The position numbers were made by a program, and so were the translations under genes. A stretch of DNA of 64,000 bases from Anaerolineae bacterium (GTDB lineage Bacteria; Chloroflexota; Anaerolineae; UBA3071): contig JARYMM010000002.1 in the NCBI GenBank assembly GCA_029907105.1, positions 18,992 to 82,991 of the forward strand, written 5' to 3'. This document shows, piece by piece, positions 4,787 to 53,498 of this stretch (its first letter is position 1; each line of letters begins with the position of its first letter). The notes under the pieces were generated by a model. It saw only the letters and a program-made list of their open reading frames with translations. It was not told the origin of the DNA and did no database searches.

Positions 4787-6892
4787 TCACCGTTTCGGGA
4801 CCTTGCCCTCCTCTTTCCTCCGCTCGATCACCTGCTCGGCCAGGCTGTCGGGCAGCAGGTCGTAGCGGGCAAATTCCAGGGTGAAGGTGCCACGGCCGGA
4901 GGTCAGGCTGCGCAGGGTCGTGGCGTAGCCAAAGGTTTCGGCCAACGGCACTTCGCCTTCCACGTGACGCATATCCCCGCGCGGGCGCAGGTCCCTCACC
5001 AGGCCGCGCCGCTGGCTCAGGTCGCCCACGACGGCGCCCACGTGTTCCTCGCCGACGGTCATGTCCAGGGACATGATCGGTTCGAGCAGCGCAGGGCGGG
5101 CCTGGCGCACCGCCTGGCGCACGGCCATAGAGCCGGCGATCTCGAAGTCCATAGCCGCCGAGTCCACCTCGTGAAAGCGGCCGCCCAGCAGCGTCACCCG
5201 CACGTCGGTGACCGGATAGCCGGCAAGGATGCCTCTTTCCAGCGCCTGGCGTACCCCCATCTCCGTAGGGCGCACGAAATCGCGGGGGAACTCGGCGGGC
5301 GGCGCTGCGTTCTCGAAGATGACCCCCGCGCCCCGCTCCAGCGGCTCAACGCGCACCTGCACCTCGGCAAAGTGGCCGCGGCCGCCGGTCTGCTTCTTGT
5401 AGCGCCCCACGGCCTCGGCGGTGCCGCGCACCGTCTCGCGGTAGGAAACCTGCGGCGGGCTGACCCGCGGCCTGACGCCGAACTCCCGCCGCAGCCGCTC
5501 CACGGCAATCTCCAGGTGCAGTTCGCCCATGCCGGCCAGCGTCTGCTCGTCCGTCTCCGCGTCGAAGCGACCGATCAGAGTGGGGTCTTCGGTGCATAGC
5601 CGCGCCACGGCCTGGCTGAGTTTCTCCCGTTCCTCTGCGGAGGCGGGCGTCAGGGCCACGGCGATGACCGGCTCCGGAAAGCGCAAGGTCTCCAGGACGA
5701 TGGGGTGCGCGGGATCGCAGAGTGTGTCGCCGGTGATGGCCGACTTGACGCCCACCAGGGCCACCACATCGCTGGCCGCCATGTGGTCCACCTGCTCGCG
5801 CTGGTTGCCGTGTATGCGGTAGATGCGGCCCACCCGCTCCTGGACATCGGCGCGAGGGTTGTAGACCATCTCCCCTACCCGCAGCGCGCCGGAAAAGACA
5901 CGTACCCAGGTGAGATGTCCCACGTGGGGGTCGGTGACGATTTTGAAGGCCGCCGCGCACAGCGGAGCGGAGGGGTCATCGGGCCGCTCGATGACCTCCT
6001 CTTCGTCGCCGGGGAGGGTGCCCAGCACAGGGGGCATGTCCACCGGCGCCGGCAGGTAGGCGACGATGGCGTCGAGCAGCGGTTGCACGCCGATGCGCTG
6101 GCGTGAGGCACCGCAGAGCACGGGCACCAGCTTGCCGGCGATGGTGGCGCGGCGCAGCGCCGCCTGGATCACGGCCACGTCAGGTTCAGGCCCCTCCAGG
6201 CATTGTTCCAGCAGTGTCTCATCCGTCTCGCAGATGGTGTCCACAAGCTTCTGCCGGGCCTCGGCGACCTGGGCGCGCAGGGTGGCGGGAACGGGTTCCA
6301 CCGTGGGATCGTCGGCGCCGGCGCGCCATAGAAGCGCCTGCTGGCTGAGCAGGTCCACGACGCCGGTGAAGGCAGCCTCGCGGCCGATGGGCAGTTGCAG
6401 GGGCACGGCGCGGGGGGTGAGCCGCTCGCGCACCTCGGCCAGCACACGGTCGAAGTCGGCGCCCAGCCGGTCGAGCTTGTTGATGAAAATGATGCGGGCC
6501 AGGTTCTCGCGGTTGGCGTGCCTCCAGACGGCCTCGGTTTGCGGCTCCACGCCGCCGACGCCGCACAACAGGACGACGGCTCCGTCAATGACGCGGATGG
6601 AGCGCACCACTTCGGCGGTGAAGTCAATGTGGCCGGGCGTGTCAATCAGGTTGATGCGGTGGCCGCGCCAGTGACAGGCGGTGGCAGCGGAGGTGATGGT
6701 GATGCCCCGCTCTCGTTCCTGCTCCATCCAGTCCAGTTGAGTGTCGCCGGCGTCCACACTGCCCAGGCGGTGCGTGCGGCCCGTGTAGTAGAGAATCGCC
6801 TCCGACGTGGTTGTCTTACCGGCGTCTACGTGGGCGAAGATGCCGATGATGCGTACTTTCTCGATGGGGGCTTCTTGCCTTTTTGCGCTCAT
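4787..6892 (-). CDS. fusA: translation elongation factor G (EF-G family GTPase); stand-alone copy outside the str operon, so probably an EF-G2-type paralog
   Basis: Has AHVDAGKTT (G1 motif) and DTPGHIDF, with full EF-G domain length. 701 aa. Confidence 0.9.
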   Translation of the reverse strand: MSAKRQEAPIEKVRIIGIFAHVDAGKTTTSEAILYYTGRTHRLGSVDAGDTQLDWMEQERERGITITSAATACHWRGHRINLIDTPGHIDFTAEVVRSIRVIDGAVVLLCGVGGVEPQTEAVWRHANRENLARIIFINKLDRLGADFDRVLAEVRERLTPRAVPLQLPIGREAAFTGVVDLLSQQALLWRAGADDPTVEPVPATLRAQVAEARQKLVDTICETDETLLEQCLEGPEPDVAVIQAALRRATIAGKLVPVLCGASRQRIGVQPLLDAIVAYLPAPVDMPPVLGTLPGDEEEVIERPDDPSAPLCAAAFKIVTDPHVGHLTWVRVFSGALRVGEMVYNPRADVQERVGRIYRIHGNQREQVDHMAASDVVALVGVKSAITGDTLCDPAHPIVLETLRFPEPVIAVALTPASAEEREKLSQAVARLCTEDPTLIGRFDAETDEQTLAGMGELHLEIAVERLRREFGVRPRVSPPQVSYRETVRGTAEAVGRYKKQTGGRGHFAEVQVRVEPLERGAGVIFENAAPPAEFPRDFVRPTEMGVRQALERGILAGYPVTDVRVTLLGGRFHEVDSAAMDFEIAGSMAVRQAVRQARPALLEPIMSLDMTVGEEHVGAVVGDLSQRRGLVRDLRPRGDMRHVEGEVPLAETFGYATTLRSLTSGRGTFTLEFARYDLLPDSLAEQVIERRKEEGKVPKR

Positions 6893-8347: not shown

Positions 8348-8758
8348 CTATTCGTGCTCCCTTAATTTGCCTTTGAGTTCTCTCGCCGTTCCTAAGACAT
8401 GTTCTGCTCCTTCTCTCGCCTCTTTGGCCTGCTCTGGACCATAGAGCCGATCCATGTAGAAAGCGGGAGCACGCTCTCTGGCCAACATGGAGGACGTTCG
8501 CTTTATCCGATCCAACGTTTCTATCTCAACTTTGATCCCCTTCTCTCGGCAAGCGCGCTCGAAAATATCGCCCACATCGTGCTCCTTCGGATATTCGACC
8601 CCCATCATCTTGAGAAGCCCCTTCAAAGAGAGTTCGACCACTTCCTGAGCTCTTCTCACCACTGTGTTCCAGGACTTTCTCTCGTAAGCCCGGAGCATCT
8701 CTTCATGATACTCCTCGGCTTCGTTGAGGAGCTTATTCCCTAACTCGAAGTTGTTCAT
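8348..8758 (-). CDS. hepT: HEPN-domain toxin (HepT-like) of a type VII HEPN/MNT toxin-antitoxin pair
   Basis: It is a small helical protein. Its ATG 8758 overlaps the upstream mntA stop codon by 4 nt (ATGA). The locus is low-GC. Confidence 0.7.
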   Translation of the reverse strand: MNNFELGNKLLNEAEEYHEEMLRAYERKSWNTVVRRAQEVVELSLKGLLKMMGVEYPKEHDVGDIFERACREKGIKVEIETLDRIKRTSSMLARERAPAFYMDRLYGPEQAKEAREGAEHVLGTARELKGKLREHE

Positions 8759-9258
8759 AGCTCGATCACCTCGCCCGGCTTCCAAGCAGGCTTCAAGTCC
8801 CAGTACCACTTTCCACTTTCCAAAATCACCTTTTTGGAGCCAAGTTCCGCAAGCCTTCTCCTTAACGCCTCGAGCCTCTCCCTCAAAAGCCCGCTATCGT
8901 AGAGTATTATCCCTTCGTCCAGGAGATCCAGGAGGATATGAGGGCTTTCCCAAAGTTCCTTCGCCGTCATGAATACCGGGTAAGGATCTGGATTCAAGCC
9001 TCTTTCCTTTAACACCCTGTACTCCTCGCTGCGCTTTAATTCAAAAAGGATGTCTACAAATCTGCTCGTCGGGTTGAACCTCACTCCCTTGTGGACAATG
9101 AGGATGTCAATATCGCTATCCGGCTTCGCCTCACCTCTAGCCACAGAACCGAAAACAGCGAAGGAGAGAATGGTGTCCTCACCGAATCTCGCTTTCAGCT
9201 CTTTCAGCAAGAGTCTCAAAAAGGCTTCGTAAGTCTCGAAACCCACATAGCCAGTCAT
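8755..9258 (-). CDS. mntA: minimal nucleotidyltransferase (MNT) antitoxin, MntA-like
   Basis: Has the GSVARGEAKPDSDIDILIV motif (GS...D.D polymerase-beta-type nucleotidyltransferase signature). Confidence 0.8.
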   Translation of the reverse strand: MTGYVGFETYEAFLRLLLKELKARFGEDTILSFAVFGSVARGEAKPDSDIDILIVHKGVRFNPTSRFVDILFELKRSEEYRVLKERGLNPDPYPVFMTAKELWESPHILLDLLDEGIILYDSGLLRERLEALRRRLAELGSKKVILESGKWYWDLKPAWKPGEVIEL

Positions 9259-27089: not shown

Positions 27090-27713
27090 ATGAGAATACT
27101 ACGCCTCGCCGCTTTTCTGCTGCTGGCCACAGCAATGTTGGCCGGAGTCTCTCCCGCCTATGCCCATGTGCCCTACATCGAGCGGGAAGACTACACGGAG
27201 GAGGCTCCCGCCGTTGTGCGTAACGTCGAGCAGTCCAAGGCGTTCTATGCCTGGCTGCAATCGGCCGATGACGTGGACTATTATCGCCTGCAAGTACAGG
27301 GGCCGACCCGGATCTTCGCCCAGGTCATTGTCCCCGTCTGCCCCGGCTACGAGGAGTTCCGGCCCAGTTTCGCCGTGATCGGCCCGGGTCTGCCCGATCC
27401 CACCGAGGAGCTGCCGGTGCTGTTGCCCGAAGGCTATGGCGCTATCATCGTGCCCAACGGAACCCCCGGCCAGCCGCGGGAGAGCTTCTACGAGCCCTTT
27501 GGCGGCAAATCCTATTACGACGGCCCCCTGTTCGACCAGACGGTCGAGATGCCCGGCGATTGGCAACTGATCGCCTGGGACCCCTACGGCATGGGCGGTG
27601 ACTACGTCACTGTGGTGGGGGCCGGAGAGCAGTTCGCACCCGCTGACATCCTGCGCTCCATCCACAACACGCTGATCATCCGGCGGAACGGTGAATTACA
27701 CACCGACTGCTGA
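27090..27713 (+). CDS. secreted hypothetical protein (signal peptide)
   Basis: Starts MRILRLAAFLLLATAMLAGVSPAYA. GGAGGA ribosome-binding site. Confidence 0.55.
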   Translation: MRILRLAAFLLLATAMLAGVSPAYAHVPYIEREDYTEEAPAVVRNVEQSKAFYAWLQSADDVDYYRLQVQGPTRIFAQVIVPVCPGYEEFRPSFAVIGPGLPDPTEELPVLLPEGYGAIIVPNGTPGQPRESFYEPFGGKSYYDGPLFDQTVEMPGDWQLIAWDPYGMGGDYVTVVGAGEQFAPADILRSIHNTLIIRRNGELHTDC

Positions 27714-27786
27714 GATCCCGGACCGTGGACAAAGCAGGAACCGCATCTGTCCCGTTAGAGGTAGAAGACGGGTTTCTGGGGCTATC

Positions 27787-29109
27787 ATGACCTACACGAC
27801 GCCGATGTTCAATCTGAAAGCTGTCGTCGAAGAGACCGGCATCACCGCCCACACGCTGCGCGCCTGGGAACGGCGCTATGGCCTGCCGCGGCCGGCGCGC
27901 AGCGAAGCTGGACACCGCCTCTATTCGCAGCGGGACATTGATGTGCTCAAATGGCTGATAGCCCGCCAACAGGAAGGCCTGAGCATCGGGAGAGCAGCGG
28001 AATTGTGGCAGGCGCTGGAAGCCGAAGGCCGGGAACCTCTGCAGGCGATGCCATTGCTTCCTCCAGCCGCCATGCCGGCTGGAGGAAAGCTCGCCGAATT
28101 GCGCCAGGCTTGGGTCTCGGCCTGCCTGGCCTTCGACGAAGCCCGCGCCGAACAGGTGGTCACGGGGGCTTTCGCCCTCTACGGGCCGGAGATGGCCTGC
28201 CTGGAGGTGCTGCAGAGGGGGCTTGCGCAGATCGGCGAGGCCTGGTACGCTGGCCAGGCCAGCGTGCAGCAGGAACACTTCGCCACCGCGCTGGCCATGC
28301 GCCGCCTGGACGGATCGGTCCTGGCCACGCCGCCACCGACACGGGCTGGCCGCATCCTGGTTGCCTGCCCGCCGGAGGAGGAACACGCCTTCAGCCTGCT
28401 GCTGGCCGCCTTCCTGTTGCGGCGACGGGGTTGGGATGTGCTCTACCTGGGTGCCAATGTGCCCATCGCCCGCCTGGAGACGGCCATCGCTGCTCGCCGG
28501 CCGCAACTGGTGCTCTCAGCGGCCCAACAGTTGCCCACAGCGGCCACCCTGCTGGAGATGGCGCGCTTCCTGTACGGGGAGCAGATTCCGCTGGCCTTTG
28601 GCGGGTGGATCTTCAACCGCCTGCCGGCATTGCCTGCCCGCATCCCCGGTCACTTCCTGGGCCAGACTATCCCGCAGGGAGTGCAGGCAGCGGAGCAATT
28701 GATGCTGGCGCCCCGCCCGCTGCCTCAGGCCGGGGGTCAGGAGGTCGCCTTCGAACACGAGAGCAGCCAGGAGCGGCGTCGGGCGCTGGCCCACTACCGT
28801 GAGCGCCAACCGCGCATCGAGGCGGAGCTGTGGCAGAACCTGGCCACGATGGGCATGGCCGAAAAGGACCTGACCATGGCCAACGACGCGCTGGCGCGCC
28901 ATATCAGTGCTGCCCTGATCCTGTGCGAGATGAGTTTTCTCGACACCTGCCTGGATTGGGCGCAGGGTCTGTTGCACAACCATGGCCTGCCCTTGGACGT
29001 CCTGTCAAACTATCTGCGCGCTTACCATCGAGCCGCCCAGGCACATCTGGATGAACGCGCCACGCCTATCGTCAATTGGCTGGCCACACAATTATCACAG
29101 GAGAAATAG
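27787..29109 (+). CDS. carH: MerR-family regulator with a cobalamin (B12)-binding domain, CarH/LitR-type light sensor, with ~130 extra C-terminal residues
   Basis: N-terminal MerR helix-turn-helix (ITAHTLRAWERRYGLPRPARSEAGHRLYS). B12-binding Rossmann motif ILVACPPEEEHAFSLLLAAFLLRRRGWDVLYLGANVP. Confidence 0.75.
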   Translation: MTYTTPMFNLKAVVEETGITAHTLRAWERRYGLPRPARSEAGHRLYSQRDIDVLKWLIARQQEGLSIGRAAELWQALEAEGREPLQAMPLLPPAAMPAGGKLAELRQAWVSACLAFDEARAEQVVTGAFALYGPEMACLEVLQRGLAQIGEAWYAGQASVQQEHFATALAMRRLDGSVLATPPPTRAGRILVACPPEEEHAFSLLLAAFLLRRRGWDVLYLGANVPIARLETAIAARRPQLVLSAAQQLPTAATLLEMARFLYGEQIPLAFGGWIFNRLPALPARIPGHFLGQTIPQGVQAAEQLMLAPRPLPQAGGQEVAFEHESSQERRRALAHYRERQPRIEAELWQNLATMGMAEKDLTMANDALARHISAALILCEMSFLDTCLDWAQGLLHNHGLPLDVLSNYLRAYHRAAQAHLDERATPIVNWLATQLSQEK

Positions 29110-38255: not shown

Positions 38256-39224
38256 ATGAAGCGATCCCTGCGTATCGTGTTGACCCTGTTAGCCGTCCTG
38301 CTGGCCATCCTGGCCATAGGCCCTTTTCTGGTGCCCGTGCCCGCGCTGCAGGATACCGTCCCGCCGCAACAACTGGCCGACCCCGACAGCCGCTTCATCG
38401 AGGTGAACGGCCTGACCGTCCATTACAAGATGGCCGGTCAGGGCGAGCCGGCGCTGGTGCTTTTGCACGGCTTCGCTGCCAGCACCTTCTCCTGGCGAGA
38501 GGTCATGGCCCCGCTGGCCGAGCTCGGCACCGTCGTGGCCTTCGATCGGCCTTCCTCCGGCCTGACCGAACGGCCCCTGCCCGGCGATTGGGTCGGCGAG
38601 AGTCCCTATAGCCGGGAGGCTCAAGCTGACCTCACCATCGGCCTGCTGGACGCCCTGGGCATCGGACAGGCGGTGCTGGTGGGCAACTCTGCCGGCGGCA
38701 CCATCGCTGCCCTCACCGCCCTGCGCTATCCGCAGCGCATCAGGGCATTGGTGCTGGTAGATGCGGCCATCTACGAGGGAGGCGGCTCCCCCGCCTGGTT
38801 GCGTCCGCTCTTCCACACGCCGCAGATGCGCCATCTTGGCCCGCTCATCGCCCGCACCATCCGCAGGCAGGGCGAGGAGCTGCTGCGCCTGGCCTGGCAC
38901 GATCCCTCCCGCATCACCGCCGAGGTGATGGATGGCTACCGCGAGGCTTTGCAAGCGGAGAACTGGGATCGCGCTCTGTGGGAGCTGACTCTGGCCAGCC
39001 GTGCTTCCGACCTGCCGGAGCGGCTGGACGAACTCACGTTGCCGGTGCTGGTCATCACCGGTGACGACGACCGCATCGTGCCCCCCGAACTGAGCGTGCG
39101 CCTGGCCGGGGAGCTGCCCAATGCTGAACTGGCGGTGCTTGCCAATTGCGGCCATGTGCCGCACGAGGAATGCCCGCAGCCCTTCCTGCAGGCGGTGACG
39201 GCGTTTCTGGATAGACTCCCGTAG
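38256..39224 (+). CDS. alpha/beta-hydrolase
   Basis: Has HGFAAS and GNSAGG nucleophile-elbow motifs. N-terminal transmembrane/signal segment. Confidence 0.75.
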   Translation: MKRSLRIVLTLLAVLLAILAIGPFLVPVPALQDTVPPQQLADPDSRFIEVNGLTVHYKMAGQGEPALVLLHGFAASTFSWREVMAPLAELGTVVAFDRPSSGLTERPLPGDWVGESPYSREAQADLTIGLLDALGIGQAVLVGNSAGGTIAALTALRYPQRIRALVLVDAAIYEGGGSPAWLRPLFHTPQMRHLGPLIARTIRRQGEELLRLAWHDPSRITAEVMDGYREALQAENWDRALWELTLASRASDLPERLDELTLPVLVITGDDDRIVPPELSVRLAGELPNAELAVLANCGHVPHEECPQPFLQAVTAFLDRLP

Positions 39225-39239
39225 AACTGAGGGGAGAAC

Positions 39240-39725
39240 ATGGCCAAAAGAGTACAAATCAACACACCAGCTCCAGACTTCACCCTGGAGGATTTCCGCG
39301 GGCAGGCTGTCAGCCTGGCCGATTTCCGCGGCCAGAAACACGTCTTCCTGGTCTTCAACCGCGGCTTCGCCTGACCCTTCTGCCGCCGGCACATGGCGCA
39401 GTTGCGCCAGGACTATGCGGAGTTCACGGCCCGAGATGCCGAGATCGTGGTCGTCGGCCCAGAGGATGCGACGGCCTTCGAACGTTACTGGACGCAGGAG
39501 AAGCTGCCTTTCCTTGGCCTGCCCGACCCCCAATCCAGCGTGCTCAAGCTGTACGGCCAGGAGGTGAACCTCTTCAAACTTGGCCGCATGCCGGCGCAAG
39601 TCCTGGTGGACAAGGACGGCACGGCCCGTTACGTGCACTACGGCCACTCCATGAGCGACATCCCCTCCAACGAGGAGTTGCTCGCCCTGCTGGATGAGCT
39701 GAAGTCCGCCATCGGCGCGCAATAG
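39240..39725 (+). CDS. PRXL2/AhpC-TSA_2-type thiol-disulfide oxidoreductase with in-frame TGA (codon 45) at the first Cys of its CxxC motif; candidate selenoprotein (UPFC)
   Basis: ATG 39240 is preceded by GAGGGGAG. The sequence ...HVFLVFNRGFA-TGA-PFCRRHMAQL... continues in the same frame into ORF 39393..39725. A hairpin lies 20 nt downstream of the TGA. Confidence 0.6.
39372..39374 (+). other. in-frame UGA, putative selenocysteine codon
   Basis: Occupies the Cys position of the RGF-C-P-x-C redoxin motif. Confidence 0.55.
39395..39408 (+). promoter_or_regulatory. hairpin GGCGC-AGTT-GCGCC, putative bacterial SECIS apical stem-loop
   Basis: Lies 20 nt 3' of the UGA. Shares the loop context GCAGTTGC with the hairpin after the second UGA. 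Confidence 0.4.
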
Positions 39726-48305: not shown

Positions 48306-48357
48306 CTCCTCAGTTTAGAATGGTTATCGTTTAATGAGGCTTGTCGTGAGGCAGACG

Positions 48358-48828
48358 ATGCTGACAACTGAGGAGATGTGTCGGAAGTTTCGGGCCCTGG
48401 GGCTGAAGGTGACGCCCCAGAGGCGCTTCATCTTCCAGGTGCTGGAGGGAAACCCCCATCACCCCTCGGCCGAGGCGGTTTACGCAGAAGTGCGTGCTTT
48501 TATCCCTGAGATCTCTCTGGCTACCGTGTACAACACGCTGCGCGAGCTGGTGGACCTGGGTGAACTGCGCGAGTTGAACCTGGGGGATGGCAAGAGCCAT
48601 TACGATCCCGACCTGAGCAACCACCAACATCTGGTGTGCGTGCGCTGCCACGCCGTCGCAGACGTGACCTGTGATATCGGTGGCCTTACCCTGACTCCGG
48701 AGCAAAGCCGGGGCTACCGACTTCTGGGCACTGATGTGACGTTCTACGGCCTGTGCCCCGCCTGCCAGCAGCAGGCGGATTGGCCGGGGCAGGCTTTGCA
48801 CCTGTGGGGGGTATCACCCGCAGCCTGA
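48358..48828 (+). CDS. perR: Fur-family metalloregulator, PerR-like
   Basis: Has a KVTPQRRFIFQVL DNA-binding helix and the HHxHxxCxxC metal site (NHQHLVCVRCH). Position heads a peroxide-stress operon. Confidence 0.7.
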   Translation: MLTTEEMCRKFRALGLKVTPQRRFIFQVLEGNPHHPSAEAVYAEVRAFIPEISLATVYNTLRELVDLGELRELNLGDGKSHYDPDLSNHQHLVCVRCHAVADVTCDIGGLTLTPEQSRGYRLLGTDVTFYGLCPACQQQADWPGQALHLWGVSPAA

Positions 48829-48861
48829 ATGCACATTACGATCGAAAGAAAGGATGACCCA

Positions 48862-49356
48862 ATGGCAAGAACAGATTTCGATTACATGAGCGGGGAGCAA
48901 TACCTGGAGGAGATCCTTCGCCAGGCGATCCGCTTCGAAGAGGAATCGTACGCCCTTTACACCAACGCCATCCGGATCAGCACGATGGCCGATGCCCGGG
49001 CCATGCTGGAGGACCTGGCTGCGCAGGAGTTGGGGCACAAACAGAAATTGCAGCGCCTTCAGGCACAGGGAGTCGCCAACCTTGTCCCTGTGGTGAGGAC
49101 GGCGGAGGCTCGGGACCTCAAACTGGCCGAGGTCTTGCAGGCGCCCTCGGAACTGGATGAAGAAGCCGACCTGCAGGACGTATTACTGGTGGCCATGCAG
49201 CGAGAGAAATCCACTCGCGAGTTCTATCTGAAGCTGGGACAGGTCACCGAAGAAGGGCCGGTCAGGAGCCTGTTCGATTTTCTGGCCGAAGAGGAGTTGA
49301 AGCATAAGCAGCGGGTCGAGTCGCTCTACGAGCAACTGGTCTACCGGGAGTTCTGA
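48862..49356 (+). CDS. rubrerythrin-like ferritin-fold diiron protein (no rubredoxin domain)
   Basis: Has two E...ExxH pairs ([30 protein letters not shown]). Confidence 0.6.
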
Positions 49357-49411
49357 TCGGAAAACGGCCAATGCGATTGGCCTTCTACCCTTTACACGAG
49401 GAGAACATAGC

Positions 49412-49573
49412 ATGAAGAAGTACGAATGTCTCGCTTGCGGCTACATTTACGATCCTGAGCTGGGCGATCCCGATGGGGGCATCGCTCCCGGCACCGCTTT
49501 CGAGGACTTGCCCGACGATTGGGTCTGCCCTCAGTGCGGTGTGGGCAAGGACATGTTCGAGCCCCTGGATTGA
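49412..49573 (+). CDS. rub: rubredoxin (53 aa); not present in the supplied ORF track
   Basis: Sequence [53 protein letters not shown] has two CxxCG knuckles. GAGGAG ribosome-binding site. Confidence 0.85.
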
Positions 49574-49590
49574 GTGAGGCCGGCGAAAGC

Positions 49591-50793
49591 ATGTCAGCCA
49601 TTGCCATCAAACCCGACGTCTATTGGATCGGTGTCAACGATCGGACGACCGACCTTTTTGAGGGCTTGTGGCCGATCTCGCAAGAGGGCGTTTCCTACAA
49701 CGCCTACCTCATCAACGACGAGAAGAAAGCGCTCATAGACCTGGCCAAAGCCTTCAAGGCGGACGAATTCTTCGACCACATCGGCGAAGTGGTGGATCCC
49801 TCGCGGCTTGACTACGTCATCATCAACCACATGGAGCCCGACCACACCGGCGTCTTGAACACGCTGCGCCGCATTGCCCCGCAGGTGACCCTTCTGGGTT
49901 CGGCCAAGACGAAGGAGATGCTGGCCTCTTTCTACGGTGTCACGGAAAACGTCGAGGTGGTCGGCGATGGCGATACCCTCTCTCTGGGCCACAGCACATT
50001 GCAGTTTTTCTCCACGCCCTTTGTGCACTGGCCGGAGACGATGATGACCTACGAGACCGGGCGGCGCATCCTTTTCTCCTGCGACGCTTTCGGTGGCTAC
50101 GGCGCGCTGCGCGGGGCCATCTTCGACGACGAGTACCCCGACCTGGGCTTCTATCAGCGGGAGGCCCTTCGCTACTATGCGAACATCATCGCCGGTTTCA
50201 GCAAACGGGTGCTGATGGCCATCGAGAAGCTGGCCGATGTGCCCGTGGAGATCATCGCCCCTTCGCACGGGCTGATCTGGCGGCAGCATCCCCAGCTCAT
50301 CGTCAACCTTTACCGCCAATGGGCCGAGTATGCCGAGAGCGGTGGCGAGGTCGGCGTGACCCTCGTCTACGGGTCCATGTACGGCTACACGGAGAAGATG
50401 ATGAATGCGGTGGCGCAAGGCATCTCCCGCGCTGGCGTGCCGGTGGAGATTTTCGACGCCGCCAGGACGCACGTCAGCTACATCCTGCCCTCCCTGTGGG
50501 CCCGGATCGGCGTGATGGTCGGCGCTCCGACCTACGAGGTCTCCCTGTTTCCTCCCGTGGCCCAGGTGCTGGACATGGCCGTGCACAAGCGCGTACGGCA
50601 TAAGAAGGCAGCCCGGTTCGGCAGCTACGGCTGGAGCGGCGGCGCGCAGAAACACTTCGAGCGCCTCGTTGAATCGGCAGGCTGGGAATTGCTGGACGTT
50701 TTCGAGTTCGTGGGCAGCCCTTCGCCGGAGGAGCTGGAGCAGGGCGAGGAATTCGGTGCCCGCTTCGCTGCACGGATCAGGGAGGGGCGATGA
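49591..50793 (+). CDS. fprA: flavodiiron protein (FprA; rubredoxin:oxygen/NO oxidoreductase)
   Basis: N-terminal metallo-beta-lactamase fold with HxExDH (HMEPDH) and a C-terminal flavodoxin domain. 400 aa. Confidence 0.85.
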   Translation: MSAIAIKPDVYWIGVNDRTTDLFEGLWPISQEGVSYNAYLINDEKKALIDLAKAFKADEFFDHIGEVVDPSRLDYVIINHMEPDHTGVLNTLRRIAPQVTLLGSAKTKEMLASFYGVTENVEVVGDGDTLSLGHSTLQFFSTPFVHWPETMMTYETGRRILFSCDAFGGYGALRGAIFDDEYPDLGFYQREALRYYANIIAGFSKRVLMAIEKLADVPVEIIAPSHGLIWRQHPQLIVNLYRQWAEYAESGGEVGVTLVYGSMYGYTEKMMNAVAQGISRAGVPVEIFDAARTHVSYILPSLWARIGVMVGAPTYEVSLFPPVAQVLDMAVHKRVRHKKAARFGSYGWSGGAQKHFERLVESAGWELLDVFEFVGSPSPEELEQGEEFGARFAARIREGR

Positions 50794-50811
50794 CGGTTGT
50801 CACATAATGTC

Positions 50812-52029
50812 ATGAATTTCACGATTATCGGCAACGGTGTGGCCGGCAACACCGCCGCCCTGGCCCTGAGCAGGCTCGTCCCAGGGGCGCGGGTTGACGT
50901 CTATGCTGCCGAAGCGCATCCCTACTACCCCCGCCCGCTGCTGCCCGAATTCCTGGCCGGCGAGCTGGACCTGGAACACCTGTACTTCAAGCCCCTGTCC
51001 TGGTATGCCGGGCGGAGCATCGCCCTGCACCTGGGCGTGCCGGTGGTCGCCATCATCCTGCAGGAACATCGCATCACGCTGGCGGATGGCACGAAGGCTG
51101 GCTACGATCGTTTGCTCCTGGCCGCCGGTGGCCAGGCCTGGGTTCCCCCCATTCGGGGCGCAGACAAGCCGGGGGTGTTTACCCTGCGCACGGTGGACGA
51201 TGCCCTGGCCATCCAGTCCTATGCCCGCCGGGCGCGCCGGGCCATCGTCATCGGCGGTGGCCTGCTGGGCCTGGAGGCGGCGCGGGCGCTGCGTGTCCTG
51301 GGTCTCCAGGTGAAAGTGGTCGAGTTTCTGCCCCGCCTGTTGCCCCGCCAGCTCGATGCCGAAGGCGCTGCCGTGCTGCAGGGGCTGATCGAGGGCCGGG
51401 GCATCGAGGTCATGGTGGATGCGGCTGCGGAGGAAATCCTGGGAGCAGATGGCGTGACGGGGCTGCGGCTCAAAGACGGTCGGGAGATCGAAGGGGAGCT
51501 TGTGCTGGTCTCCACGGGCATCCGCAGCAACGTCGCCCTGGCCCGAGAGGCGGGCCTGGAGGTGAACCATGGCGTGGTCGTAGACGAACATCTGCGCACC
51601 AGCGCCGCCGACGTCTACGCCGCGGGGGACGTGGCGGAGTTCGATGCTCGGGTCTATGGCATTGTGCCCGCGGCCATCGAGCAGGCGCGGGTTGCCGCTG
51701 CCCACATGGCCGGCGACGAGAGCGCCACTTATCAGGGCACCGTGCCCTTTACCACGCTGAAGGTCACCGGCATTGATCTGACCAGCGTGGGCGTGATCAT
51801 GCCGGAGGAGGGCCGGGAAGCGGAATATCAGGAGCTGCGGCGCACGGATGGCGCCCAGGGGCTGTACCGCAAGCTGGTGTTGAAGGACGGCTGCATTGTG
51901 GGGGCCATCCTGCTGGGCGACAAGGCCCGTGTGGGCCCCGTCACGCAGTTGATCAACCGGTCAGTGGATGTCTCGGCTCACGTCGAGCGGCTCCTGGATG
52001 ACGATTTCGACCTTAAATCCCTGCTGTGA
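50812..52029 (+). CDS. NAD(P)H:rubredoxin oxidoreductase (FAD-dependent pyridine nucleotide-disulfide oxidoreductase family)
   Basis: Has FTIIGNGVAGNTAA and IVIGGGLLGLEAA dinucleotide-binding motifs. Confidence 0.75.
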   Translation: MNFTIIGNGVAGNTAALALSRLVPGARVDVYAAEAHPYYPRPLLPEFLAGELDLEHLYFKPLSWYAGRSIALHLGVPVVAIILQEHRITLADGTKAGYDRLLLAAGGQAWVPPIRGADKPGVFTLRTVDDALAIQSYARRARRAIVIGGGLLGLEAARALRVLGLQVKVVEFLPRLLPRQLDAEGAAVLQGLIEGRGIEVMVDAAAEEILGADGVTGLRLKDGREIEGELVLVSTGIRSNVALAREAGLEVNHGVVVDEHLRTSAADVYAAGDVAEFDARVYGIVPAAIEQARVAAAHMAGDESATYQGTVPFTTLKVTGIDLTSVGVIMPEEGREAEYQELRRTDGAQGLYRKLVLKDGCIVGAILLGDKARVGPVTQLINRSVDVSAHVERLLDDDFDLKSLL

Positions 52030-52077
52030 AGCGATGGTTTCCCTCTGGAAGCACTGTTTCCACCTGTGTGGTTGGTA

Positions 52078-52105
52078 GTAGGACAACTGCGAGCAGTTGT
52101 CCTAC
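52078..52105. promoter_or_regulatory. perfect 28-bp palindrome GTAGGACAACTGC-GAG-GCAGTTGTCCTAC between nror and rbr, flanked by direct repeats AGCACTGTTTC (52050 and 52143)
   Basis: Read directly. No U-tract follows, so this is not a classical terminator. Confidence 0.5.
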
Positions 52106-52205
52106 GCTGGTAGCCAGCAGCGCCCATCGCAACCGCACAGGTAGCACTGTTTCAGGATGTGTTGGCATCCTGACCACGACTCTTCACATTCAAGGAGAAG
52201 CAACG

Positions 52206-52709
52206 ATGAAACTGATGACCAAAGACAATCTGCAAGCTGCCTTTGCCGGCGAGAGCCAGGCGCACATGAAGTATCTGATCTTCGCCGATCAGGCGGAGAA
52301 GGAAGGCTTTCCCGATGTCGCCCGTCTCTTCCGCGCCATTGCCTTCGCCGAGCAGGTCCATGCCACCAACCACTTCCGCACCCTGGGCAAAATCGGCCAG
52401 ACGGCGGAGAACCTGCAGGCGGGGATTGATGGGGAGACCTATGAGGTGAACGAGATGTACCCCGCCTTCCGCGCCGTGGCTGAGCTGCAGGAGGAAAAAG
52501 GGGCGAACCGCTCGATGAGCTGGGCCCTGGAGGCGGAGAAGGTGCATGCCGGGATGTACGAACAGGCCCGCCAGGCCGTCCTCTCCGGCAAGGATGCCGA
52601 GGTGGGTGAGGTGTACATCTGCGAAGTCTGCGGCTGGACCGTCGAAGGCGAGCTGCCTGAGCGTTGCCCCATCTGCGGGGCCAGGAAGGAGAAGTTCCGC
52701 CGCTTCTGA
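52206..52709 (+). CDS. rbr: rubrerythrin (ferritin-like diiron domain plus C-terminal rubredoxin-like CxxC...CxxC)
   Basis: Has AFAGESQAHMKY and the C-terminal CEVCGW...CPICGA. AAGGAGA ribosome-binding site. Confidence 0.85.
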   Translation: MKLMTKDNLQAAFAGESQAHMKYLIFADQAEKEGFPDVARLFRAIAFAEQVHATNHFRTLGKIGQTAENLQAGIDGETYEVNEMYPAFRAVAELQEEKGANRSMSWALEAEKVHAGMYEQARQAVLSGKDAEVGEVYICEVCGWTVEGELPERCPICGARKEKFRRF

Positions 52710-52907
52710 GATGGGCGGACAGGAAAGACACGGTGTTGCCACGTTGATCGTCGCAGGTTGCCTGTGGGGTGCTGAACAGGAGGTTTGCTCATGGCAGAGA
52801 AGGAAAAGATCCCCTCTTGCGTGCAACCAGCAGCCGGCCCGTTAGTGCCGGCACCGAAGCTCGCCTCCGCCAAAGGCGAGCCGGCAACCGAGAAGGAGGT
52901 ACCTGAG

Positions 52908-53498
52908 ATGATCGCACGTGTGGGCAAGGAAGCGCCGGATTTTGAGACCAATGCCTTTGTGGACGGAGGCTTTAAGAACATCAAGCTGTCGGACTATCGC
53001 GGCCAGTGGGTGGTGCTCTGCTTCTACCCCGGCGACTTCACCTTCGTTTGACCGACGGAACTGACGGCAGTTGCCGCCAGGTATCCGGAGCTGAAGGCGT
53101 TGGGCGTCGAGGTGCTGGCCATGAGCGTGGACAGCGTCTTCGTTCACAAGGTCTGGCAGGAAGAAGAGCTGTCCAGGATGATCGAGGGGGGAGTTCCCTA
53201 TCCCATGCTCTCCGACCGGGGCGGGCGCATCGGCACCGTCTACGGAGTCTACGACGAGGCCGCTGGTGTGGACATTCGGGGCCGTTTCCTGATTGACCCC
53301 GATGGCGTGATCCAGGCCATGGAGGTCCTGACACCGTCTGTGGGCCGCAACCCGGACGAGCTGGTCCGCCAGGTCAAGGCGTATCAGCATGTGCGGGAAA
53401 CGGGCGAAGTCACCCCCTCCGGCTGGACACCAGGCCAACCCACCCTCAAACCAGGTCCTGGTCTGGTGGGCAAGGTCTGGAAGGTGTGGAAGCCCTGA
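52908..53498 (+). CDS. AhpC/Prx1-type peroxiredoxin with in-frame TGA at the peroxidatic cysteine ([14 protein letters not shown]); candidate selenoperoxiredoxin with no resolving Cys
   Basis: ATG 52908 is preceded by AAGGAGGT. ORFs 52785..53051 and 53100..53498 share a frame across TGA 53049..53051. A hairpin lies 13 nt downstream. Confidence 0.65.
53049..53051 (+). other. in-frame UGA, putative selenocysteine codon
   Basis: Replaces the Cys codon of the universal peroxiredoxin motif DFTFVCPTE. Confidence 0.6.
53065..53076 (+). promoter_or_regulatory. hairpin CGGC-AGTT-GCCG, putative bacterial SECIS apical stem-loop
   Basis: Lies 13 nt 3' of the UGA. Loop context GCAGTTGC is shared with 39395..39408. 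Confidence 0.4.

What the first reader, a model, noticed from the sequence alone, without database searches (positions are those of the whole stretch)
39240..39725. Second in-frame UGA in a PRXL2/AhpC-TSA_2-type redoxin (U-P-F-C motif)
Starting at ATG 39240 (RBS GAGGGGAG), the frame reads ...KHVFLVFNRGFA-TGA-PFCRRHMAQLRQDY... and continues into the tracked ORF 39393..39725. The TGA (39372..39374) occupies the first Cys of the RGF-C-P-x-C motif of peroxiredoxin-like-2 thiol-disulfide oxidoreductases. A 5-bp stem hairpin GGCGC-AGTT-GCGCC begins 20 nt downstream. This is a second, independent redox gene with UGA at a catalytic Cys in the same window. That makes Sec recoding much more likely than two coincidental nonsense mutations.
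Basis: partly seen in the sequence, partly recalled or inferred. Interest (0 to 1): 0.8.

Follow-up and report, generated by a model that had tools for sequence, protein, structure and literature searches.

The report
Selenocysteine Prx-like redoxin gene with SECIS
The apparent stop codon inside this small redox-enzyme gene almost certainly encodes selenocysteine, directed by a conserved RNA hairpin just downstream; it is a solid example of a selenoprotein family predicted since 2004, not a new kind of thing.

Summary
ATG 39240 to TAG 39725 (+) is one 161-codon frame interrupted only by TGA 39372-74. The TGA sits at the first position of a C-x-x-C redox motif (U45-P-F-C48).

All 160 related DNA loci retrieved have TGA at this column: 80 species genomes, mostly Chloroflexota/Anaerolineae, and 80 metagenome contigs. 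Both sides of the TGA vary with coding periodicity.

A 6-bp hairpin with loop AGUU (39394-39409) lies 19 nt after the UGA. It is 99.4% paired in 146 distinct sequences. Three of its six pairs show compensatory changes, and its synonymous sites are frozen.

A second gene in the window, a peroxiredoxin (TGA 53049), has the same GC-AGUU-GC hairpin apex. TGA is otherwise the commonest normal stop in the window, so the recoding is site-specific.

The protein passes Pfam AhpC-TSA and Redoxin but fails AhpC-TSA_2. It meets the published criteria (PF00578 plus UxxC) of the predicted selenoprotein family "Prx-like thiol:disulfide oxidoreductase". It lacks the peroxiredoxin Pro/Thr signature.

Verdict: a real, well-supported new member of a known kind, of modest interest. 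A useful by-product is that public gene calls for this family are systematically wrong (truncated, or Trp at the UGA).

The parts
39229..39236 (+). Shine-Dalgarno-like GAGGGGAG ahead of the true start codon
   Evidence: Read directly from the sequence. It lies 3 nt before ATG 39240 and 5 nt after the stop of the upstream alpha/beta-hydrolase gene.
39240..39725 (+). Full selenoprotein gene: 161 codons, Prx-like thiol:disulfide oxidoreductase with Sec45. No N-terminal hydrophobic segment is seen by eye, so it is inferred to be cytoplasmic.
   Evidence: Translation. Pfam AhpC-TSA 82 bits and Redoxin 72 bits. Full-length homologues. Coding periodicity on both sides of the TGA.
39372..39374 (+). 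In-frame UGA = Sec45, first position of the U-P-F-C redox motif
   Evidence: TGA in 80/80 genome loci and 80/80 metagenome loci. TGT/TGC in Cys homologues. It aligns with the N-terminal Cys of the ResA CxxC and with the Thr of the Prx PxxxTxxC.
39381..39383 (+). Cys48 codon (TGC), the partner of Sec45. It aligns with the peroxidatic-Cys position of BCP-type peroxiredoxins.
   Evidence: Invariant in alignment A4 and at least 90% conserved in A3. Alignment to 3drn and 4nmu.
39394..39409 (+). Bacterial-type SECIS hairpin U-GGCGC-AGUU-GCGCC-A: 6-bp stem, tetraloop AGUU, starting 19 nt after the UGA
   Evidence: RNAalifold predicts it independently. It is 99.4% paired in 146 distinct sequences, 3 of 6 pairs have compensatory changes, and slid controls pair at 17-67%. 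Third-codon-position entropy is 0.14 bits in the hairpin against 1.4 elsewhere.
39393..39395 (+). Internal ATG (Met52) at the 5' base of the hairpin, overlapping its first two paired bases. This is the false start used by gene callers for the truncated 110-aa product.
   Evidence: ORF list. About 30 of the 120 best database hits start MAQLRQ....
52905..53498 (+). Supporting context: second selenoprotein gene, a peroxiredoxin with Sec at the peroxidatic position (FTFV-U-PTE, TGA 53049-53051). It ends an oxidative-stress gene cluster.
   Evidence: AhpC-TSA 135 bits, 1-cysPrx_C. The cluster is Fur-family regulator, rubrerythrin, flavodiiron protein, rubredoxin reductase, rubrerythrin. The start codon was not verified.
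53065..53076 (+). Hairpin CGGC-AGUU-GCCG after the peroxiredoxin UGA, with the same GC-AGUU-GC apex. The loop starts 17 nt after the UGA.

Best explanation
Window 39240-39725 (+) is a single gene for a 161-residue thioredoxin-fold protein, inferred to be cytoplasmic. It belongs to the 'Prx-like thiol:disulfide oxidoreductase' selenoprotein family.

Decoding (inferred from established bacterial Sec biology, supported by the comparative data): the UGA at 39372-74 is decoded as selenocysteine. While the ribosome reads the UGA, the downstream hairpin (39394-39409, loop A-G-U-U with the G/U that SelB is known to contact) recruits SelB-GTP-Sec-tRNASec. This competes with release factor 2.

Chemistry (inferred): Sec45 lies at the N-terminal cap of the first long helix. 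This is the position of the attacking Cys in thioredoxin/ResA-type CxxC proteins. Its selenolate attacks an oxidised substrate, either a disulfide or sulfenate on a client protein or possibly a hydroperoxide. A Sec45-Cys48 selenenylsulfide then forms and is re-reduced by a thioredoxin-type system.

Shown here: the frame, the conserved UGA, the conserved and covarying hairpin, the fold and the motif register.
Inferred: SelB dependence, selenium content, substrate and reductant.
For: (1) One reading frame with UGA at the CxxC column. Cys homologues have TGT/TGC there.
(2) TGA is present in 160/160 related loci. Their proteins are 66-77% (genome loci) and 54-99% (metagenome loci) identical to their respective search queries.
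(3) Positional entropy is 0.76/0.52/1.40 bits upstream and 0.62/0.45/1.29 downstream of the TGA. Both halves are therefore translated in this frame.
(4) Hairpin. RNAalifold finds it unaided. It is 99.4% paired. GC<->AU swaps occur in 53 sequences and CG<->UA swaps in 50 sequences. These swaps force Ala->Met and Arg->His changes (HMAQLRQ vs HMMQLHQ, with His always CAT). Synonymous sites in the hairpin are frozen. Two divergent Cys-form genes have lost both the hairpin and the HMAQLRQ peptide.
(5) A second redox gene in the window has UGA at its catalytic Cys, followed by the same GC-AGUU-GC apex.
(6) TGA ends 21 of 34 Pfam-supported ORFs in the window. One example is pyruvate kinase, whose last domain ends 2 residues before the TGA.
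(7) The geometry matches published SECIS features: a 6-8 bp stem and a loop G about 20 nt after the UGA (PMC4605307).
(8) Fold and register. The AlphaFold model of a 68%-identical Cys homologue has pLDDT 89.7. The best PDB matches are BCP peroxiredoxins (TM 0.85-0.89) and ResA. The U aligns with the first Cys of the ResA CxxC.
(9) The family is listed as a high-confidence predicted selenoprotein with criteria PF00578 + UxxC (PMC9312934, PMC13188914, PMC2398784).
Against: - No selA, selB, selD or tRNA-Sec gene is in the 64-kb window or in the flanks of the 120 related loci scanned for tRNAs. The Sec trait of the source genome is therefore inferred, not shown.
- No Rfam family matches the hairpin.
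- The single-sequence fold energy is not better than shuffles.
- There is no experimental evidence of selenium in this protein. The family is 'predicted', not verified, in the literature.
- Substrate and reductant are unknown, and gene neighbours are variable and uninformative.
Confidence: 0.9

Rival explanations
1. Nonsense mutation, pseudogene or split gene: the TGA is a true stop and the gene is dead.
For: ORF finders and public annotations treat it as a stop. The closest relative in the protein database is a truncated 107-aa call (P0048).
Against: TGA is present at the same column in 160/160 loci from different species. Both halves show purifying, period-3 selection. The hairpin has compensatory changes. 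A dead gene would not keep any of these.
Confidence: 0.01
2. Genome-wide reassignment of UGA (genetic code 4 or 25, UGA = Trp or Gly), so position 45 is Trp or Gly.
For: 70 of the 120 best database proteins carry W at this column, because gene callers chose code 4 on short contigs.
Against: TGA ends 21 of 34 Pfam-supported ORFs in the window, with domains ending at the stop. The code-4 product P0002 runs 45 residues past the family's normal C-terminus through a second TGA. The column is a catalytic Cys in homologues. A dedicated hairpin would not be needed under a reassigned code.
Confidence: 0.01
3. Termination at the UGA plus re-initiation at ATG 39393, giving a 44-aa peptide and a 110-aa C-terminal fragment as the real products.
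For: An ATG lies 18 nt after the UGA, and many databases annotate this product.
Against: There is no Shine-Dalgarno sequence before ATG 39393, and that ATG overlaps the 5' strand of the hairpin stem. The fragment would lack the redox motif and the N-terminal beta-strands of the fold. In some relatives this codon is CTG, not ATG (L143, L146).
Confidence: 0.02
4. SECIS/SelB-dependent insertion of cysteine rather than selenocysteine, for example through a tRNASec-like tRNA-Cys or thiophosphate-derived Cys-tRNASec, either always or when selenium is scarce.
For: One related locus (L044) carries a 93-nt tRNA-Cys-like gene with a long variable arm 2.4 kb from the orthologous gene. Such selC* tRNAs have been shown to function in opal decoding (PMC5389517).
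Against: It was seen in 1 of 120 loci scanned. Its anticodon is GCA, which reads UGY, not UGA. Keeping UGA plus SECIS in 160/160 loci when a one-base change gives Cys argues that Sec itself is selected.
Confidence: 0.05

Closest known systems
Prx-like thiol:disulfide oxidoreductase selenoprotein family (Kryukov & Gladyshev 2004; 'Prx-like 1' of the GOS survey; exemplar WP_010940744.1, which by the author's recollection, not checked here, is from Geobacter sulfurreducens)
   Same: It has the Pfam PF00578 domain and Sec in a UxxC motif at the CxxC position. These are the two published criteria (PMC9312934, PMC2398784, PMC13188914). It is a small single-domain protein of anaerobes.
   Different: The published members discussed are mostly Deltaproteobacteria and marine metagenome reads. 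This clade is centred on Chloroflexota/Anaerolineae. It has its own signature (NRGFxUPFC ... GRMPAQ ... HYGHSMSDIP) and is almost always the Sec form.
BCP/PrxQ-type peroxiredoxins (e.g. Sulfolobus Bcp1, PDB 3drn)
   Same: They are the best structural match (TM 0.85-0.89) and the best PDB sequence match. Cys48 aligns with the peroxidatic-Cys position and Arg116 with the conserved Prx Arg.
   Different: The Prx signature PxxxTxxC is not kept. The Pro position is Arg41 and the Thr position is Sec45. The active site is a CxxC-type pair, not a lone peroxidatic Cys.
TlpA/ResA/CcmG thiol-disulfide oxidoreductases (e.g. ResA, PDB 1su9, 4nmu)
   Same: The CxxC is in the same register and Sec aligns with the attacking N-terminal Cys. 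The Pro of GRMPAQ aligns with the Pro that, from general knowledge of thioredoxin-fold proteins, is their cis-Pro. TM is 0.71-0.85.
   Different: ResA/TlpA proteins are membrane-anchored and extracytoplasmic and work in cytochrome c maturation. This protein has no signal or anchor sequence. The NCBIfam ResA model scores only 53.8 bits against a cut-off of 170.
SelL / SelL-related redox proteins (NCBIfam NF040769) and the PRXL2 / AhpC-TSA_2 group
   Same: NF040769 is the best NCBIfam hit (85.5 bits, covering the motif).
   Different: The score is below the curated cut-off (120). Pfam AhpC-TSA_2 scores only 18.5 bits against 27 and its match lies outside the motif. SelL itself has UxxU and a eukaryotic SECIS.
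Bacterial SECIS elements (E. coli fdhF, Moorella thermoacetica fdhA)
   Same: It is a hairpin inside the coding sequence just 3' of the UGA, with a 6-bp stem and a small loop with G then U. The loop G is the 27th nucleotide after the UGA here and the 19th in the window's Prx gene. Both lie near the published figure of about 20 nt (PMC4605307).
   Different: The loop sequence is AGUU closed by C-G. The fdhF loop is recalled from memory as GGUC. No bulged U is evident. Binding to SelB was not tested.

Membership tests
Prx-like thiol:disulfide oxidoreductase selenoprotein (PF00578, UxxC/UxxU) | AhpC-TSA (PF00578) domain above Pfam's threshold | tested here: met
   82.4 bits against a cut-off of 26, covering residues 7-131.
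Prx-like thiol:disulfide oxidoreductase selenoprotein (PF00578, UxxC/UxxU) | In-frame UGA in a UxxC motif, with Cys in homologues at the same column | tested here: met
   The motif is U45-P-F-C48. TGA is present in 160/160 loci. Cys-form homologues have TGT/TGC.
Prx-like thiol:disulfide oxidoreductase selenoprotein (PF00578, UxxC/UxxU) | Bacterial SECIS hairpin immediately downstream of the UGA | tested here: met
   A 6-bp stem with AGUU loop lies 19 nt after the UGA. It is 99.4% paired and has 3 covarying pairs.
Prx-like thiol:disulfide oxidoreductase selenoprotein (PF00578, UxxC/UxxU) | Host genome has the Sec-decoding trait (selA, selB, selC, selD) | not testable with these tools
   None is in the window. 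Indirect support comes from the second UGA-containing redox gene with the same hairpin apex.
Prx-like thiol:disulfide oxidoreductase selenoprotein (PF00578, UxxC/UxxU) | Selenium actually incorporated in the protein | not testable with these tools
   This needs 75Se labelling or mass spectrometry. The family itself is listed as 'predicted with high confidence', not verified (PMC13188914).
Peroxiredoxin proper (BCP/PrxQ, AhpC/Prx1) | Active-site signature PxxxT/SxxC with a conserved Arg | tested here: not met
   In the alignment to 3drn, FNRGFA-U-PF-C lies opposite FYPKDD-T-PG-(C/S). Pro is replaced by Arg41 and Thr by Sec45. Cys48 and Arg116 are kept.
   18.5 bits against a cut-off of 27. The stretch is residues 54-105 only and excludes the redox motif. 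CDD PRX_like2 (cd02970) could not be tested because no CDD library is available.
SelL-related redox protein (NCBIfam NF040769) | Score at or above the curated cut-off | tested here: not met
   85.5 bits against a cut-off of 120. The match is partial, profile positions 2-99 of 173.
TlpA/ResA thiol-disulfide oxidoreductase | CxxC in register, a Pro aligned with the ResA Pro, and extracytoplasmic location with an anchor or signal | tested here: inconclusive
   The CxxC register and the aligned Pro118 are met. The NCBIfam ResA model scores 53.8 bits against 170. No N-terminal hydrophobic segment is seen in the sequence, which argues against this location.

The most novel reading that the evidence does not exclude
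The Chloroflexota-centred clade may be a functionally distinct enzyme that depends on Sec almost without exception. It is defined by NRGFxUPFC...GRMPAQ...HYGHSMSDIP and was Sec in all 160 loci retrieved. It mixes a TlpA-like U-x-x-C and an aligned Pro with a Prx-like Arg. On this reading it is neither a peroxiredoxin nor a ResA-type reductase. Its SECIS would be so constrained that it dictates five codons of protein sequence, with coupled Ala/Arg <-> Met/His switches. A more speculative add-on is that some of these bacteria also carry tRNASec-like tRNA-Cys genes (L044), which would allow facultative Cys insertion.
Probability: 0.25. Interest if true: 0.45.

Novelty: new member of a known kind. 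Interest (0 to 1): 0.3.

Why it matters
This is a clean, strongly supported case of UGA-to-selenocysteine recoding in a likely Chloroflexota (Anaerolineae-like) genome. That assignment is inferred from the best hits being almost all Chloroflexota MAGs. Only 3 Chloroflexi selenoproteins were listed in the 2006 survey (PMC1794560).

The practical point concerns annotation. Among the 120 closest database entries, about 30 are truncated at an ATG at the 5' base of the SECIS hairpin and 70 carry Trp at the Sec site because a gene caller switched to code 4. Only about 10 are genuine Cys forms. Anyone annotating Anaerolineae MAGs will therefore miss or mistranslate this gene, and also the Sec-peroxiredoxin in the same window.

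The hairpin is also a neat example of RNA structure overriding protein sequence. Two adjacent base pairs flipped together and dragged Ala->Met and Arg->His with them. It does not open a new question in selenoprotein biology.

Tried and rejected
- Rfam scans, at gathering thresholds on the whole window and at E<=10 on 39340-39460. They gave no SECIS family, only a chance lncRNA hit.
- Single-sequence folding z-scores were uninformative.
- Sec machinery. ARAGORN found no tRNA in the window and no tRNA-Sec in the flanks of 120 loci. Pfam scans of 46 of the 48 window ORFs of at least 100 aa kept after overlap filtering, plus three added sequences (the hydrolase, PCMT and Sec-peroxiredoxin genes), found no SelA, SelB or SelD. 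The EF-like gene at 4787-6889 is EF-G.
- An exact look-up of the window's 110-aa fragment in the contig index found nothing, so the source contig was not identified.
The 68%-identical Cys homologue P0003 was modelled instead.
- A scan for further GC[AG]GT[TC]GC hairpins behind a TGA gave three more candidates (15807+, 54054-, 30255-). In each the TGA frame is non-coding junk, so they were rejected.
- Gene neighbourhood as a clue to function. Neighbours vary: an alpha/beta hydrolase upstream in 15-17 of 80 loci, DegV downstream in 15 of 80, and an unknown family upstream in 9 of 80. There is no redox partner and no sel gene.
- The nearest Cys forms (P0003, P0020, P0061, P0064) were meant as a 'no-hairpin' control but still carry the hairpin. 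They look like recent one-base Sec-to-Cys changes or read errors. Only the more divergent P0087 and P0093 served as a real control.

Full report
**1. The observation**

The sequence is exactly as described.
- GAGGGGAG lies at 39229-39236 and the ATG at 39240.
- There are 44 sense codons, then TGA at 39372-39374, then 116 more sense codons to TAG 39723-39725.
- A mechanical ORF list splits this into a 44-aa ORF and a 110-aa ORF. The second starts at ATG 39393.
- The hairpin GGCGC-AGTT-GCGCC is at 39395-39408. A flanking U-A pair makes it 6 bp (39394-39409), beginning 19 nt after the UGA.

**2. What the protein is**

With Cys substituted for the stop, the 161-residue product gives these matches.
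- Pfam AhpC-TSA scores 82 bits and Redoxin 72 bits.
- Pfam AhpC-TSA_2 scores only 18.5 bits, below its cut-off of 27, and that match lies outside the motif.
- The best NCBIfam model is 'SelL-related redox protein' at 85.5 bits, below its cut-off of 120. ResA scores 53.8 bits against 170.

Against solved structures, the best sequence matches are a BCP peroxiredoxin (3drn), AhpE and ResA. In those alignments:
- the UGA column lies opposite the Thr of the peroxiredoxin PxxxTxxC signature;
- the UGA column lies opposite the first Cys of the ResA CxxC;
- Cys48 lies opposite the peroxidatic-Cys position;
- the Prx Pro position is Arg41.

An AlphaFold model of a 68%-identical Cys homologue (P0003, pLDDT 89.7) has the Prx/TlpA thioredoxin fold. 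The motif sits at the N-terminus of the first long helix. The top PDB matches are BCPs (TM 0.85-0.89), Prx1 and ResA.

Family-conserved residues include N40, R41, F43, P46, C48, H51, G115, R116, P118 and a C-terminal HYGHSMSDIP block. The protein is therefore a CxxC-type Prx-like oxidoreductase and not a canonical peroxiredoxin.

**3. Is the UGA conserved?**

- A scan of one genome per species found 483 relatives. The best 80 (L001-L080) are nearly all Chloroflexota/Anaerolineae MAGs, at 66-77% protein identity. All 80 have TGA at this column.
- A metagenome scan used a more distant, low-GC relative (P0069) as the query. It gave 80 further loci. All 80 have TGA, with the motif variants UPFC, UPYC, UMYC, UAFC, UHFC and UVYC.
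- Among the 120 best hits in the protein database, 70 have W at this column, about 30 begin at MAQLRQ, 10 have C, 3 have R and 1 has L.
- The DNA behind examples shows what these are. The W is TGA read with code 4, and that product runs through the true TGA stop for another 45 residues. The closest C forms are TGT/TGC. The L form is TTA. The C and L forms are single-base variants of TGA.
- Across 81 sequences, positional entropy is 0.76/0.52/1.40 bits in the 33 codons upstream and 0.62/0.45/1.29 in the 60 codons downstream. Both halves are translated in one frame.

**4. The hairpin**

- RNAalifold on 81 sequences returns exactly this 6-bp helix and nothing else.
- On 146 distinct sequences, 99.4% of cells are paired, against 17-67% when the 3' partner is slid by 1-3 columns.
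- Three of the six pairs show changes on both sides.
- The main event is a double swap. GGCGC/GCGCC in the high-GC clade becomes GAUGC/GCAUC in the low-GC clade. That is G-C to A-U in 53 sequences and C-G to U-A in 50.
- This swap changes the encoded peptide from HMAQLRQ to HMMQLHQ. The His codon is always CAU, as pairing requires.
- Rarer variants are also compensated: GGCAC/GUGCC, GACGC/GCGUC and GGUGC/GCACC.
- The loop is AGUU in all but one of the 146 sequences (GGUU in L143).
- Third-codon-position entropy is 0.14 bits in the five hairpin codons and 1.4 bits elsewhere. Ala is almost always GCG, Gln always CAG and Leu always UUG.
- Two more divergent Cys-form genes (P0087, P0093) have lost the hairpin (3/6 and 1/6 pairs) and also the HMAQLRQ peptide. 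That peptide is therefore conserved for the RNA and not for the protein.
- Four closer Cys forms keep the hairpin, as expected for recent Sec-to-Cys changes.
- The geometry fits the published description of bacterial SECIS elements: a 6-8 bp stem and a loop G about 20 nt after the UGA (PMC4605307). Here the loop G is the 27th nucleotide after the UGA.

**5. Is UGA recoded only here?**

- TGA is the commonest stop in the window, ending 21 of 34 Pfam-supported ORFs. For example, the last domain of pyruvate kinase ends two residues before its TGA. This rules out a genome-wide reassignment.
- A six-frame scan for in-frame TGAs next to Cys, Ser or Thr found one other credible case. It is a peroxiredoxin with FTFV-U-PTE (TGA 53049-51; AhpC-TSA 135 bits).
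- That gene ends a cluster of Fur-family regulator, rubrerythrin, flavodiiron protein, rubredoxin reductase and rubrerythrin.
- Its UGA is followed by CGGC-AGUU-GCCG, which has the same GC-AGUU-GC apex, with the loop starting 17 nt after the UGA.
- The 8-mer GCAGTTGC occurs 15 times in the window against 3.9 expected. Only these two copies lie behind an in-frame TGA in a real gene.
- Two unrelated redox genes with UGA at the catalytic residue and a shared hairpin apex point to one SelB-type recognition system in this organism.

**6. What could not be shown**

- The window holds no tRNA.
- It holds no selA, selB or selD.
- The flanks of the 120 related loci that were scanned hold no tRNA-Sec.
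- The source contig was not found by exact look-up.
- Gene neighbours are variable and give no functional clue.

**7. Comparison with what is known**

Reviews of prokaryotic selenoproteomes list 'Prx-like thiol:disulfide oxidoreductase', defined by pfam00578 plus a UxxC/UxxU motif. It is classed as a high-confidence predicted family dating from 2004 (PMC9312934, PMC13188914).
- It is 'Prx-like 1' in the ocean survey, with 225 Sec sequences (PMC2398784).
- It was counted in 28 organisms in 2016 (PMC5029168).
- It was found in several Deltaproteobacteria in 2006, when only 3 selenoproteins were known from Chloroflexi (PMC1794560).

The gene here meets both published criteria and has a SECIS, so I file it as a new member of that known kind. 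It fails the peroxiredoxin signature, the AhpC-TSA_2 threshold and the SelL-related threshold.

Three things are particular to this clade:
- its Chloroflexota centre;
- its near-universal use of Sec;
- the tight coupling between hairpin and peptide.

**8. Verdict**

I put Sec recoding at about 0.9. The chemistry (Sec45 attack, a Sec45-Cys48 selenenylsulfide, thioredoxin-type recycling) is inferred from the fold and the motif register. Novelty: new member of a known kind. Interest is about 0.3, mainly as an annotation correction and a tidy covariation example.

Noticed in passing
window 52905-53498 (+), TGA 53049-53051, hairpin 53065-53076: A second selenoprotein gene: a 2-Cys-type peroxiredoxin with Sec at the peroxidatic position (FTFV-U-PTE). 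The usual resolving Cys appears replaced (EVTPSGW). Its hairpin has the same GC-AGUU-GC apex as the Prx-like gene. The start codon (ATG 52788 or 52905) was not settled.
   Followed up: partly
window 48334-53498 (+): An oxidative-stress gene cluster typical of anaerobes: Fur/PerR-family regulator, rubrerythrin, flavodiiron protein (ODP + flavodoxin), NADH:rubredoxin-type oxidoreductase, rubrerythrin with rubredoxin-like domain, then the Sec-peroxiredoxin.
   Followed up: partly
L044 5906-5998 (+) (Chloroflexota MAG, JAAZNS010000036.1): ARAGORN calls a 93-nt 'tRNA-Cys' (anticodon GCA) with a long variable arm, 2.4 kb downstream of the orthologous Sec gene. It resembles the tRNASec-like selC* tRNA-Cys of Mukai et al. 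(PMC5389517), whose listed host phyla do not include Chloroflexi.
   Followed up: no
public protein database hits P0001-P0120: Systematic mis-annotation of this family. 70 of 120 entries carry Trp at the Sec site because short contigs were called with genetic code 4, and at least one then reads through the real TGA stop. About 30 are truncated at the ATG at the 5' base of the SECIS hairpin.
   Followed up: yes
window 38256-39224 (+) and L001, L003, L013, L016, L026, L031, L035, L043, L048, L054, L077, L079 and others: An alpha/beta-hydrolase gene lies directly upstream on the same strand, 15 nt from the Prx-like start in the window. The same pairing recurs in about 15-17 of 80 species loci. 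DegV lies downstream in 15 of 80. No functional link is evident.
   Followed up: partly
L022 about 3079 (15 codons upstream of the Sec codon at L022:3124): This orthologue has a second in-frame TGA (LSGY*GDKHV, where relatives have Arg). It looks like a CGA->TGA change, a sequencing error or a decaying copy.
   Followed up: no
window 8348-9258 (-): Overlapping HEPN-domain and nucleotidyltransferase-domain ORFs with low GC3 (0.59-0.62, against about 0.8 for neighbours). This looks like a HEPN/MNT toxin-antitoxin pair, possibly acquired horizontally.
   Followed up: no
window 27691-29109 (+); also L051, L053, L070, L074 upstream neighbours: A MerR-family regulator fused to B12-binding domains (CarH-like light or B12 sensor) is in the window. 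Homologues of the same architecture lie next to the Prx-like gene, on the opposite strand, in four related loci.
   Followed up: no
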